Shown: positions 51,601 through 54,600 of the stretch, one piece after another
Numbering within the stretch: the stretch's first letter is position 1
Layout: every line of letters begins with the position of its first letter
Made by a program: the position numbers
From: Callorhinchus milii
Taxonomy: Eukaryota
NCBI RefSeq assembly: GCF_018977255.1
Contig: NW_024704750.1
Coordinates: forward strand, 2,976,001-3,040,000
DNA length: 64,000 nt
Direction of reading: 5' to 3'

Positions 51601-54600
51601 CTTGCCTGATAAAGCTATTACACTGGCAGATAAATGTTGAACGCAAAGTCTTAACTTGGAATGCTTCAAGAATGGTTAACTGTCCTGCTTCTGCCTGTGT
51701 GGGCATGTACTGAGCCTATTATTTCCTGGACCAGCGACCTAATGTCACCAGAGGCTTGAGAAGAGATTTATCCTTTTCACACACATCCAAGTGGAGGAAT
51801 TCTGAGATGACTGACCAACTGAAGAGAACACAATGGAGTTTACGTGTGCTGTTCATTAGCTGTAGTGATTTTTTGTTGGTGCTTCTCATGGGATTCTCTG
51901 TTTCAAGTATGCAGTGAAAGGTTTGTTACAGCAAGCGATCAGCATATGACGATTCCCATTTTGAGAGTGAACAAAACCGGTTATTAAATAGCAGAAGTTT
52001 TTGTTCAAAAAAAAAGTATGGAAAGTCTCTTCAGAATGAGTAGAGTGTAATATAACAATGTACCAACTTGAGGTTCAGGTATCTTAACCGCTTATTGAAT
52101 TGTGCCTTTTTTGTTTTATTGCTTTAGTTTATGCTGTGATGTTGTGAAATTCTAACTGCCTCATCATCTAAGTAACGGGTTGTACAGACATTAGTTCAGC
52201 TCTTTAAATATGTCTTTACTTTAGGATAGTCGCATTTCTTTGTTAATAATGACTTGACGATCACCTATCTAGCAGTGTGAGTGAAAGGATTGATTGATTG
52301 ATTGGTTCTTAGACAAACCAGAATCAGCATTGAATCCTATTGACCACCACAGGTGAAGATTTCAATTTTGAATAACTTGATTTATGAATAATATTAATAA
52401 TAGTAATAATATTGTAAATTAATTTGACATGTACTGCCTCTTTCACTGGCACTGAAAAGCAGAAAGCACCAGACCAGCTGGGGCCACAGAAGCACCACAA
52501 CCTGGGATTTTCACGTCAGTCGCACTTCATACCATTTCCATAAAATCTGCAAGCATCCCTGCTTTTTCTTTGACAGCCTCGTGGAAAGTTTTCTGTTTCA
52601 CTAAAGCAGTGTCCCAGCACTGCGGCCCATTTAAAATTATTGGCCTCTTCATATTGAGAGGCAGGATTAACTGTTAAGTGTAGAACATTTAGCTTAATGA
52701 GAATCATTTGGCTCCTTGAGATGCGGTGGAAATTGACTGCGGTTTTATTCACTTTCTGCCCTTTCGCTTTCACAATACAGACGCCCATTACTGTGTGGCA
52801 TACACTCGTTTAATCTGTTTAACGCTGTGCAAAATGCAAAATCCTGCAGATGCTGGAAATCCGAAACAACAACAGAAGTCACTGGGAACACTCAACAGGT
52901 CAGGCAGCATCTATGGAGTTTAATTAACACAGCATTAACAGTTTTTTTTCCTCTGGATTTACATTTAAAACAACCAAGTTCATTAACCCTTTACAAGCAC
53001 TTAAATTCAGTTCAGCTTTTGGCAAACTCGCGCTGCTTTTTCAATTGGAGAACTGGATTGGAGAAAAAAGTTTTTTTTAAAAAAAAAAGTTTCCACAGTG
53101 GCTGCCTGACCTGCTGAGTGTTCCCAGCAACTTCTGTTCTGGTTTCTGTTTAACGCTGTATCTTTCAGAGGGTATATGCAGAATTTGGTAAAGTATTTTT
53201 TATTATTCCTGTTTATGATCACAAAATATCTTGGGTGACACAATTTTAAAAAAAAAAACGATATTCTTCAATCTCACATTCTAAGCGTGTGTTTAAAGCA
53301 CTATGTAAATTCCCCTTTCTGTTGCCCATGAATTCTAATGGTGTCTGTAATTCTCCTATTCATTACACCCACATTCATGTACACGAGGCTTGTTGGAATT
53401 TGCAAAACAAGTTTGAAATCTTGTTTTCACGTTTTTGAGTTTACCAAAGCGGTGAGTGTGTGTTGCTCTTCCAGATCATGATTCTGGAAGGGAAGAGTTT
53501 AATTAACACAGCAGCAACAGATTTTTTTTTCTCTCTCTCTCTCTGCATTTACATTTTAAACAACCAAGTTCATTAACCCTTTACAAGCACTTAAATTCAG
53601 TTCAGCTTTTGGCACATGCACGCTGCTTTTTCAATACTGGATTGGAGAAAAGAGTGTTTAAAAAAAAAAAAAAGGTTTCTATCCATTTCCAAGGACGACT
53701 GTTATCAGGTACAAGAAATTGGCCAAACCAAAGAGATTTCTTAACTTGACAGATTTAAAAAAAAAACACTTTGTGTTAAAATGATACTATATCCCTGAAA
53801 GGGTTAAAATATTCTAGCTGCAACCTGAGTATTTATTAAAGCACTGCAGTCAATGCAATTCCTTTGCGTAAATGCTGCTTGATTTGATGTAGAACATAAT
53901 ATGCAGTTTCTCTAATATTCGACTTCCAAATAATCGATAAAATTCTTTGCAGTGTAGATGCAAATGCCGGGTCTTAACATTGTTCTCCCAGGATTCATGG
54001 CTATTCACCCAGCAAAGCCCCTCAGCTGTTTCCTGCTTTGACGCAGCTTCGGATTTGCGATGCAGCCAACCACATGAACAACAACAACAAAATTGCATTT
54101 GTATAGCGCCTTTAGTTGGGTTACAGTAATAATCTGTTCCTTTACATATTGTAAATTTGCACTGCCTATGCTCACAGAGGCACTGTACATCTGGGAGAGA
54201 GAGGCAGATTGTGTCTACGTACTGACATGTAGAGAATGTTTAGGGAGAAAGTGTCACTGGTCACTATTCTGTAGAAATGGAACACCTGCATGTGATCTTG
54301 TTTTTTGAAGACCCATTACAACTTGGGGCCTATTTATTGGCCTTGAGTTGCAGAAGCTTTAGGAACTGGATCCTTTTAGCTGGTTACAAATCTATTACCA
54401 TTTTATTGTAACAATGCAGAGGTCATGGGCTTTTAAACCGATCCTGTCTTAATGAATCACCTGGATTTGTGAAGTGGGGTTCCAGTAAAAATCCAAGATG
54501 CCAGAATGTTTTCAGGTCACTATGTCAGGGACAGAGCTGAGCCTACCACAGGATTTACAATTATTTGCTCTTTCCTCTCCTGTAATTCTCATATTTCATG

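What the first reader, a model, noticed from the sequence alone, without database searches (positions are those of the whole stretch)
52814..53679. Palindromic element with a 15-bp TSD that captured ~180 bp of neighbouring host DNA in place of its own core
Seen: an exact 15-bp direct repeat TCTGTTTAACGCTGT (52814-52828, 53145-53159) flanks an insert with imperfect ~56-bp inverted arms (about 52861-52916 and 53093-53148). The centre (52916-53093) is a diverged, same-orientation copy of 53495-53679, about 400 bp downstream, with short microhomologies at the junctions (GAG left, GTTTC/TTTC right). In the sibling arm at 42598-42702 the same position continues into a hammerhead-like core instead. 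Inference: during insertion, synthesis jumped from the element to a local template (genomic DNA or the sgpp1 transcript) and back, i.e. local templated capture by a Penelope-type or foldback element. Because it probably lies in the sgpp1 3' UTR, it would also duplicate UTR elements.
Basis: partly seen in the sequence, partly recalled or inferred. Interest (0 to 1): 0.7.

Follow-up and report, generated by a model that had tools for sequence, protein, structure and literature searches.

The report
Penelope-type insertion carrying locally copied DNA
Just downstream of the elephant-shark sgpp1 coding region, a small retroelement insertion consists of two inward-facing element ends joined by about 175 bases copied from DNA roughly 335 bases away; it is a clean single example of a known way such elements pick up host sequence, not a new kind of system.

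Summary
An exact 15-bp direct repeat (52814-52828 / 53145-53159) brackets a 316-bp insert. The insert has two inverted arms of one repeat family (60 nt, 83% complementary). Its centre (52916-53093) is a same-orientation copy of 53495-53679 (92.4% substitution identity, 4 indel events). Junction microhomologies are 3 nt (left) and 4-5 nt (right).

The window is Callorhinchus milii sgpp1, and the insert lies 1.23 kb past the stop codon. Whether it lies in the 3' UTR could not be tested.

The architecture matches published Penelope-like element (PLE) insertions: head-to-head 5'-truncated ends, a 36-nt "tail" at one end only, and a target-site duplication. Capture of unrelated sequence between PLE ends is already published.

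Two other family copies in the window continue past the break point with family sequence. One of them carries degenerate hammerhead boxes that Rfam does not recognise.

Best reading: reverse transcription was primed on both strands of one staggered break, and the gap was bridged by synthesis on a local template (the host transcript or the resected flank).

Not checked: a genome-wide census, an orthologous empty site, and transcript ends. No eukaryotic DNA collection was available.

Verdict: a genuine but ordinary-class feature, of modest interest.

The parts
52814..52828 (.). Left copy of the 15-bp target-site duplication
   Evidence: Exact 15/15 direct repeat with 53145-53159 (D7). It is one of only 6 such repeats in about 54 kb of non-tandem window sequence.
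52829..52864 (-). 36-nt outer extension ('tail') of the left arm; the right arm and the sibling lack it
   Evidence: Alignments. The inner part is shared with the fourth copy at 31936-32044. The outermost ~20 nt has no other match in the window.
52857..52918 (-). Left arm: 5'-truncated end of the repeat family (element sense on the minus strand, outer end = element 3' end)
   Evidence: Matches the sibling at 54/60 and the right arm at 47/55. nhmmer E 1e-20.
52916..53093 (+). Centre: same-orientation copy of 53495-53679, overlapping each arm by the junction microhomology
   Evidence: blastn E 2e-53. 159/172 substitution identity with 4 indel events. Junction strings.
53092..53146 (+). Right arm: 5'-truncated end of the same family, inverted relative to the left arm, without the tail
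   Evidence: (I1). Complementarity to the left arm runs 7 nt into the right duplication copy, up to 53151.
53145..53159 (.). Right copy of the 15-bp target-site duplication
   Evidence: D7.
53495..53679 (+). Presumed source of the centre, 335 nt downstream of the target site
   Evidence: It has no third copy in the window; the weak hit at 58162-58345 is unrelated.
53466..53492 (+). 10-bp stem-loop ending 2 nt upstream of the source's 5' boundary
   Evidence: RNA fold of 53455-53510: -18.8 kcal/mol, z -3.36, 2 of 200 shuffles as stable.
42596..42705 (-). Sibling copy in sgpp1 intron 1: arm plus family continuation with CUGAUGA...GAAAC boxes at 42674-42699
   Evidence: No Rfam hammerhead hit. 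The fold is no better than shuffles, z +1.14.
31936..32044 (+). Fourth, more diverged family copy in sgpp1 intron 1
   Evidence: Local alignment score 16.5 against a shuffle mean of 9 (sd 1.4), 0 of 500 shuffles as high, against both the left arm and the sibling. Recovered by the 4-sequence profile.
51035..51586 (+). Last coding exon of sgpp1 with its stop codon (context)
   Evidence: 100% identical over 183 aa to UniRef SGPP1 of Callorhinchus milii. Stop TGA at 51584-51586.

Best explanation
A Penelope-like (PLE-type) retroelement integration made the insert at one staggered double-strand cut.

1. The cut had a 15-nt stagger, which became the target-site duplication.
2. Both exposed 3' ends primed reverse transcription on element RNA. 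One started at the family's longer 3' end (arm plus 36-nt tail, left). The other started at the shorter 3' end (right).
3. This produced two head-to-head stubs of 89 and about 53 nt. Both stop within about 5 nt of the same element position.
4. The two cDNA ends were not joined directly. One switched template through 4-5 nt of microhomology (TTTC/GTTTC) onto local sequence 335 nt downstream and copied about 175 nt.
5. It then left the template beside a stable stem-loop and joined the other cDNA through a 3-nt microhomology (GAG).

The local template was either the sense transcript running through the site or the single-stranded flank of the same break. The polarity fits both.

**Shown:** the single duplication bracketing everything, the inverted truncated arms, the one-sided tail, the local origin of the centre, and the microhomologies.

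**Inferred:** PLE identity of the family, priming on both strands, capture at the time of insertion, and the nature of the template.
For: **Structure**
- An exact 15-bp duplication brackets the whole 316-bp insert. It is one of 6 such repeats in about 54 kb.
- The arms are inverted copies of one family. Their defined ends face outward and their truncated ends face inward.
- Both arms break off within about 5 nt of the same family position.
- The left arm carries 36 extra outer nt that the right arm and the sibling lack. The inner part of this extension recurs in the fourth copy.
- The family continues with its own sequence past the break point in 2 of 2 other copies.
- The sibling holds the window's only CTGATGA-N(8-30)-GAAAC match, 18 nt beyond the arm, on the strand that makes the outer arm ends the RNA 3' ends.

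**Centre**
- Centre and source are 159/172 identical, with 4 indel events.
- There are only 2 copies in 64 kb.
- The source is bounded upstream by a stem-loop with z -3.36.

**Literature**
- PMC11167929 (main text read): a purified PLE protein cleaves and extends both DNA strands and starts reverse transcription at two internal sites 30-40 nt apart, which is the origin of the 'tail'.
- PMC3846280 (passages and section 9 read): the typical PLE insert has an inverted terminal copy, a 31-bp tail at one end and a TSD. Unrelated non-coding sequences were found captured between solo pLTRs with TSDs, and template jumps were proposed.
- PMC8557442 (passages read): an inverted 5'-truncated copy, with a 30-40 bp tail often at one end only.
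- PMC4350176 (passages read): PLEs occur in all vertebrate lineages, and the elephant shark mobilome is almost entirely retroelements.
Against: - No eukaryotic genome collection was available. The family's full structure, its copy number and the genome-wide copy number of the 180-bp segment are therefore unknown.
- The window holds no RT or GIY-YIG domain: 0 of 219 stop-to-stop ORFs of 65 aa or more.
- Rfam finds no hammerhead at gathering score in 64 kb, nor at E up to 10 in 42450-42850.
- The box pattern alone is expected 0.37 times per window (29 of 100 shuffles had at least one). The motif departs from the canonical core and pairing at 3 positions, and the strand folds no better than shuffles.
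- The other two family loci have no inverted partner: 0 of 2 (35, 50, 31 and 486 of 500 shuffles reach the observed scores). No TSD was found at the sibling.
- The arms are 85.5% identical to each other, against 92.4% for centre/source. The left arm is closer to the sibling (90%) than to its partner. The difference is not significant (Fisher p 0.18), but it leans towards two different template RNAs or a later capture.
- The arms stop 11-15 nt short of the predicted ribozyme cut site, so run-off at a cleaved RNA 5' end is not supported.
- The published PLE start site is AC-rich in the RNA. Here the corresponding RNA strand is GU-rich; its complement is 52% A and 26% C.
- Published rotifer PLE TSDs are 8-10 bp, not 15.
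Confidence: 0.55

Rival explanations
1. Two steps. An ordinary head-to-head PLE insertion with a palindromic inner junction came first. Later the palindrome centre broke (hairpin or cruciform breakage) and was repaired by microhomology-mediated, synthesis-dependent repair that copied nearby DNA (SD-MMEJ or MMBIR-type templated insertion).
For: - Both arms end at nearly the same family position, as expected from roughly symmetric loss around a palindrome centre.
- The strand folds into a strong hairpin: DNA z -6.36 and RNA z -7.16, with 0 of 100 shuffles as stable in each.
- Centre/source divergence (7.6%) is lower than arm/arm divergence (14.5%).
- Both junctions carry microhomology.
- PMC3846280 (passages) reports palindromes at inverted PLE junctions.
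- PMC8421209 (abstract start only) describes templated insertions through template switching at microhomology.
Against: - The divergence difference is not significant (Fisher p 0.18). It may also reflect constraint on the source or two template RNAs.
- This reading needs two rare events at one site.
- The templated insertions I recall from end-joining repair are mostly far shorter than 175 nt (recalled, not checked here).
Confidence: 0.2
2. The arms are the terminal inverted repeats of a foldback or MITE-like DNA transposon whose interior was replaced by local DNA.
For: An inverted-repeat structure bracketed by a direct duplication, with strong hairpin potential.
Against: - The ends are not symmetric. 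The left end has 36 nt with no counterpart on the right.
- The two other family copies are solitary single arms that continue into non-inverted family sequence.
- A 15-bp duplication is long for cut-and-paste families (established knowledge).
- The elephant shark mobilome is described as almost exclusively retroelements (PMC4350176, passages).
Confidence: 0.07
3. The 180-bp segment is itself a mobile or dispersed repeat, or a normal interior of a family variant. On this reading the two nearby copies are coincidental, or the downstream copy derives from the insert rather than the reverse.
For: The segment ends in an A-run and contains T-run and CT-microsatellite tracts. The direction of copying cannot be proved without an outgroup.
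Against: - There are only 2 copies in 64 kb, 400 bp apart.
- The homology runs past the A-run into TTTC.
- No duplication or arms flank 53495-53679. A target-primed insertion would be expected to retain the element's 3' end.
- 2 of 2 other family copies have a different continuation.
Confidence: 0.06
4. Assembly artefact (chimeric or collapsed reads creating a false foldback and duplication).
For: The window has gaps at 29694-30078 and three single Ns. PLE-type inverted structures are said to trouble assemblies (PMC8557442, passages).
Against: - All repeated parts are diverged: 7.6% and 14.5% substitutions, plus indels. Artefactual duplications are near-identical.
- No N lies near the finding.
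Confidence: 0.02

Closest known systems
Canonical Penelope-like element insertions with an inverted 5'-truncated terminal copy, a one-sided 30-40 bp tail and a TSD (e.g. Pen2a_Av in Adineta vaga; PMC3846280, PMC8557442)
   Same: - Head-to-head inverted terminal copies bracketing the unit.
- An extension of 36 nt at one end only.
- A target-site duplication.
- A hammerhead-type motif next to the terminal region in a sibling copy.
   Different: - There is no ORF and no direct pLTR pair, only two stubs of 89 and about 53 nt.
- The TSD is 15 bp against 8-10 bp in the rotifer examples.
- The hammerhead is unconfirmed by Rfam.
- Family membership rests on architecture, not on an RT/GIY-YIG relative.
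Capture of unrelated host sequence between PLE terminal repeats (NRPS gene, non-coding segments and 0.9-1.5 kb spacers in A. vaga; PMC3846280 section 9 and passages)
   Same: Non-element DNA framed by element ends, with the whole bracketed by a TSD. That paper proposes template jumps.
   Different: - Here the captured piece is short (about 175 nt).
- Its source can be identified 335 nt from the target site.
- Both junctions show microhomology.
- The passages I read of that paper do not say that the captured pieces were local.
In vitro behaviour of the Anolis Poseidon PLE protein (PMC11167929)
   Same: Cleavage and extension of both DNA strands, and two alternative internal reverse-transcription start sites 30-40 nt apart. 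Together these would give exactly two outward-facing 3' ends, one with a tail.
   Different: - The in vitro start site is AC-rich in the RNA and not homologous to the target.
- Here the equivalent RNA strand is GU-rich, and the right outer junction shows 5 of 7 matches with the target.
- Nothing about filler capture is reported in the text I read.
LINE-1 twin priming / 5' inversion and microhomology-mediated 5' junctions (listing and abstracts seen: PMC4245944, PMC2912911, PMC12016303)
   Same: Target-primed reverse transcription from both strands of a staggered break. A 15-bp TSD (the abstract of PMC4245944 gives 15 bp for human L1). Microhomology at internal junctions.
   Different: - Twin priming joins two different, adjacent parts of the element and keeps a poly(A) tail at one end (established knowledge).
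- Here both arms are the same part of the element, and neither outer end has an A-tail.
Templated insertions in polymerase-theta end joining and MMBIR (listing and abstract starts seen: PMC7165422, PMC8421209)
   Same: A filler copied from sequence near the break, entered and left through a few nucleotides of microhomology.
   Different: Here the break was made by a retroelement integration, and the filler lies between two cDNA stubs. At about 175 nt, it is long for end-joining fillers (recalled).

Membership tests
Penelope-like elements (PLE) | Single ORF with a telomerase-like RT and a GIY-YIG endonuclease | tested here: not met
   0 of 219 stop-to-stop ORFs of 65 aa or more in the window hit an RT or GIY-YIG Pfam family. 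All four copies are short non-coding fragments. An autonomous relative elsewhere in the genome could not be looked for.
Penelope-like elements (PLE) | Hammerhead ribozyme motif in the terminal repeat | tested here: inconclusive
   - The sibling has the only CTGATGA-N(8-30)-GAAAC match in the window (0.37 expected by chance).
- The motif departs from the canonical core and pairing at 3 positions.
- Rfam gives no hammerhead hit, and the fold has z +1.14.
- The fourth copy keeps only one of the two boxes.
Penelope-like elements (PLE) | Inverted 5'-truncated copy adjoining the unit (head-to-head), giving inverted repeats around the insert | tested here: met
   Arms 52858-52917 and 53092-53151, 83% complementary, with outer ends at the family's defined ends and inner ends truncated. 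Only 1 of 3 family loci in the window has this form.
Penelope-like elements (PLE) | Optional 30-40 bp 'tail' extension, often at one end only | tested here: met
   36 nt (52829-52864) at the left end only. The inner part is shared with the fourth copy. The outermost ~20 nt is unmatched in the window, so its family origin is not proven.
Penelope-like elements (PLE) | Target-site duplication bracketing the whole complex insert | tested here: met
   15/15 exact duplication. Background check.
Penelope-like elements (PLE) | Preference for AT-rich or microsatellite targets | tested here: inconclusive
   The 15-mer is 9/15 A+T. The flanks are T-rich (38% and 44% T). One site cannot show a preference.
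Non-LTR retrozymes (tandem hammerhead repeats) | Head-to-tail tandem units, each with a hammerhead | tested here: not met
   No tandem array at any of the family loci. The copies are dispersed single fragments.
MITE / foldback DNA transposons | Symmetric terminal inverted repeats reaching both ends, with a short fixed-length TSD | tested here: not met
   The left end has 36 nt without a counterpart. The other copies are single-armed. The TSD is 15 bp.
LINE/SINE insertion with twin priming | A-rich or simple-repeat 3' tail at one outer end, with the inverted part being a different segment of the element | tested here: not met
   There is no A-tail at 52829 or 53144. Both arms are the same family segment.
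Microhomology-mediated templated insertion (SD-MMEJ / MMBIR type) | A filler copied from nearby sequence, with microhomology at entry and exit | tested here: met
   The source lies 335 nt from the target site. Microhomology is GAG on the left and TTTC/GTTTC on the right. This describes how the filler was made, not what made the break.

The most novel reading that the evidence does not exclude
PLE integration complexes that prime on both strands may routinely bridge their two cDNA ends by copying the nascent transcript, or the resected flank, of the gene they have just cut. PLE-type insertions would then be a recurrent source of short local duplications of intron and UTR sequence, embedded in long hairpins. 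This locus would be the first resolved example, with both switch points (microhomology entry, stem-loop exit) visible.
Probability: 0.12. Interest if true: 0.55.

Novelty: new member of a known kind. Interest (0 to 1): 0.3.

Why it matters
The way PLEs integrate is still poorly understood. The inverted copies, the tail and host-sequence capture are described, but not explained step by step.

This small, fully resolved insert shows all three features together and has an identifiable local source for the captured piece. It is therefore a useful natural record of one integration event: which ends primed, where synthesis stopped, and where it switched.

If the insert is transcribed as part of sgpp1, it adds a roughly 55-bp imperfect RNA hairpin (RNA fold z -7.16) and a second copy of about 175 nt of downstream sequence to the transcript. 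That is inference; expression was not testable here.

On its own it is one locus and fits known mechanisms.

Tried and rejected
**Hammerhead searches**
- Rfam at gathering score over the window gave only 3 tRNA-like hits.
- Rfam at E up to 10 over 42450-42850 and 52700-53800 gave only chance-level hits to unrelated families.

**More copies**
- blastn and nhmmer --max searches found 3 arms and 2 centre copies.
- A short-word search with the tail led to a fourth, diverged copy at 31936-32044.
- A 4-sequence profile found nothing further.
- The weak centre-like hit at 58162-58345 (E 0.039) is unrelated on alignment.

**Other checks on the family loci**
- Inverted partners beside the sibling and the fourth copy: none.
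- TSD around the sibling: none of 8 nt or more, apart from a 16-nt pair at 75%.

**Models rejected**
- Snap-back model (one arm copied from the other). The left arm has 36 nt that the right lacks, and no complementary microhomology exists for the fold-back.
- Tandem duplication of a ~585-bp unit. Only the first ~180 bp of each would-be unit match.

**Weak Pfam hits**
- ORFs crossing the insert gave hits below the curated cut-offs (Rhv E 0.0026, DPCD E 0.0056). I treated them as chance among 114 queries and did not follow them.

**Literature that could not be read**
- Pyatkov et al. 2004 is not held.
- The supplement of PMC4209133 could not be searched, so any elephant-shark min-hammerhead listed there was not seen.
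- A search for 'Penelope-like' plus 'template switching' listed 10 papers. Judging by the listing only, none is about local capture.

**Collections**
- The prokaryote-only genome-contig collection was not used, because it cannot hold this locus.
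Full report
**What is there.**
- An exact 15-bp direct repeat, TCTGTTTAACGCTGT, sits at 52814-52828 and 53145-53159. It brackets a 316-bp insert (52829-53144).
- The insert begins and ends with inverted arms: 52858-52917 and 53092-53151, 60 nt, 83% complementary.
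- Between the arms, 52916-53093 is a same-orientation copy of 53495-53679 (blastn E 2e-53).
- A global alignment gives 159 matches and 13 mismatches (92.4%), plus 4 indel events. These events include a shortened CT microsatellite and a 6-nt insertion.
- The arms match each other at 47 of 55 positions (85.5%).

**Is it more than chance, or an artefact?**
- Outside the tandem-repeat bins, about 54 kb of the window holds only 6 exact direct repeats of 15 nt or more at 100-1000 bp spacing.
- Five of these are parts of this finding: the flanking 15-mer and four blocks of centre/source. The sixth is an unrelated 26-mer at 60213/61207.
- All repeated parts are diverged and no N lies nearby, so an assembly duplication is very unlikely.
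- The single strand folds into a strong hairpin: DNA z -6.36 and RNA z -7.16, with 0 of 100 shuffles as stable in each.

**Context.**
- The translated last coding exon (51035-51583) is 100% identical over 183 aa to UniRef SGPP1 of Callorhinchus milii. It is 78-81% identical to the elasmobranch proteins. The window is therefore elephant shark, not human.
- I searched that exon alone.
- I then mapped two named reference proteins onto the window by tblastn, which places the coding exons at about 30865-31506, 44704-44820 and 51035-51583 on the plus strand.
- The stop codon is at 51584-51586, so the insert starts 1.23 kb downstream of it on the sense strand.
- Poly(A) hexamers on that strand lie at 51983, 53835, 55041 and further on, with the first AATAAA at 55712. 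Without transcript data, the claim that the insert is in the 3' UTR stays open.
- An atxn3-like gene (Josephin and UIM domains) lies upstream.

**The repeat family.**
- blastn and nhmmer --max find three arms in the window: left, right and the sibling at 42596-42655.
- A short-word search with the left arm's outer 36 nt led to a fourth, more diverged copy at 31936-32044 on the other strand. Its local alignment score is 16.5 against a shuffle mean of 9 (sd 1.4), with 0 of 500 shuffles as high, against both the left arm and the sibling.
- A profile of the four found nothing more.
- Past the position where both arms of the finding break off, the sibling and the fourth copy continue with sequence they share with each other. 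So in 2 of 2 other copies the family's own continuation differs from the finding's centre.
- In the sibling this continuation holds the only CTGATGA-N(8-30)-GAAAC match in the window (42674-42699, minus strand).
- That match is weak evidence for a hammerhead:
  - the pattern is expected 0.37 times per window;
  - the motif departs from the canonical core and pairing at 3 positions;
  - Rfam reports no hammerhead;
  - the strand folds no better than shuffles.
- The placement and strand of the boxes are still informative. They make the outer ends of all arms the 3' side of the presumed element RNA, which is what target-primed reverse transcription requires.

**Ends of the arms.**
- The left arm runs 36 nt further outward (52829-52864) than the right arm and the sibling.
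- The inner part of this extension is shared with the fourth copy. The outermost ~20 nt has no other match in the window.
- The family therefore shows two alternative outer ends about 36 nt apart.
- The inner ends of the two arms lie within about 5 nt of the same family position.

**Comparison with published PLE architecture.**
- PMC3846280 (passages and section 9 read) describes the typical PLE insert as pLTR-ORF-pLTR plus an adjacent inverted pLTR. The whole is flanked by a TSD, with a 31-bp tail optionally at one end.
- PMC8557442 (passages read) gives the same picture: an inverted 5'-truncated copy, with a 30-40 bp tail often at one end only.
- PMC11167929 (main text read) shows that a purified PLE protein cleaves and extends both DNA strands. 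It starts reverse transcription at two internal RNA sites whose spacing is the tail.
- PMC4209133 (parts 1 and 2 read) places minimal hammerheads in PLE terminal repeats and notes pairs of them 100-700 bp apart on opposite strands.
- PMC4350176 (passages read) reports PLEs in all vertebrate lineages and an elephant-shark mobilome that is almost entirely retroelements.
- The finding has the head-to-head truncated ends, the one-sided tail and the TSD.
- It lacks any ORF: 0 of 219 ORFs with RT or GIY-YIG domains.
- I therefore file the family as PLE-type on architecture, with membership unproven.

**How the centre got in.**
- The left junction reads arm...ATGGAG|TTTAATT.... The sibling reads ...ATGGAG|AAAGG and the source reads ...GAAGAG|TTTAATT. 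GAG is therefore shared.
- At the right junction, TTTC (possibly GTTTC) is shared by the insert, the source and the family continuation.
- The source begins 2 nt after a 10-bp stem-loop (53466-53492; z -3.36, 2 of 200 shuffles as stable).
- The polarity is coherent with an RNA template:
  1. A bottom-strand cDNA primed at the right end copies element RNA to give the right arm.
  2. It then switches onto a sense-strand transcript at the TTTC and copies it back to 53495.
  3. It stops at the base of the stem-loop.
  4. It pairs through GAG with the top-strand cDNA, which is the left arm.
- A DNA-template version fits equally well. The top-strand cDNA end would anneal to the resected bottom strand of the right-hand flank, 335 nt in, and copy it rightwards.
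- The sequence alone does not separate the two versions.

**Timing.**
- If everything was made in one event, arm/arm and centre/source divergence should be equal.
- They are 14.5% and 7.6%, which is not significantly different (Fisher p 0.18).
- The identical 15-mers are compatible with either value (P 0.095 and 0.31).
- The left arm is closer to the sibling (54/60) than to the right arm (47/55).
- That fits a burst of copies of similar age, or two different template RNAs. It does not fit one arm being copied from the other.

**Rivals.**
- The main rival is a two-step history: an ordinary head-to-head insert whose palindromic centre later broke and was repaired by templated synthesis from nearby DNA. 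It explains the symmetric inner ends and the lower centre divergence, and it cannot be excluded here.
- A foldback or MITE reading fails on the asymmetric ends and the single-armed siblings.
- A dispersed-repeat origin of the centre is unlikely, since there are only two copies in 64 kb, 400 bp apart. It needs the genome to settle.
- A tandem duplication and a snap-back copy were rejected.

**Novelty.**
- The class is known: PLE-type insertions with inverted ends, a tail and captured foreign sequence.
- What this locus adds is a captured piece whose source lies next to the target, with both switch points readable.
- A search for 'Penelope-like' plus 'template switching' listed 10 papers. Judging by the listing only, none is about this.
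- I rate it a new member of a known kind, of modest interest.

**What stayed unchecked.**
- So the following could not be examined:
  - the genome-wide copy numbers;
  - the family's full-length relatives;
  - the orthologous empty site;
  - long-read support;
  - the transcript ends.
- Pyatkov et al. 2004 is not held.
- The supplement of PMC4209133 could not be searched, and it may list elephant-shark motifs that bear on the hammerhead claim.

Noticed in passing
window 33002-33064, 38187-38249, 47336-47404 (+): Three tRNA-like Rfam hits (32-40 bits) with similar sequences inside sgpp1 introns. They are probably the heads of tRNA-derived SINE copies rather than tRNA genes.
   Followed up: no
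window 1178-2244, 5988-6707, 62299-62799, 62940-64000: Large tandem arrays: a C-rich 17-nt unit x64, a G/A-rich 25-nt unit x31, GT-rich arrays, and a CTCACC/25-nt array running off the window end. These arrays account for the long ORFs in all frames there.
   Followed up: partly
window 9089-9400 and 17420-17770 (+): Josephin and UIM domain exons of an atxn3-like gene lie upstream of sgpp1 on the same strand.
   Followed up: no
window 60213-60238 and 61207-61232: An exact 26-nt direct repeat 994 bp apart. It is the only other long exact direct repeat in the non-tandem part of the window, and might bracket another insertion.
   Followed up: no
window 29694-30078: Two assembly gaps are flanked by GGT/GTT-type 15-21-nt tandem repeats (29826-29885, 30079-30158), just upstream of sgpp1 exon 1. 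I left the gaps as they are.
   Followed up: no
window 53468-53490: A near-perfect 23-nt palindrome lies immediately upstream of the source segment. I used it above as a possible stalling point, but it could have a role of its own in the sgpp1 downstream region.
   Followed up: partly
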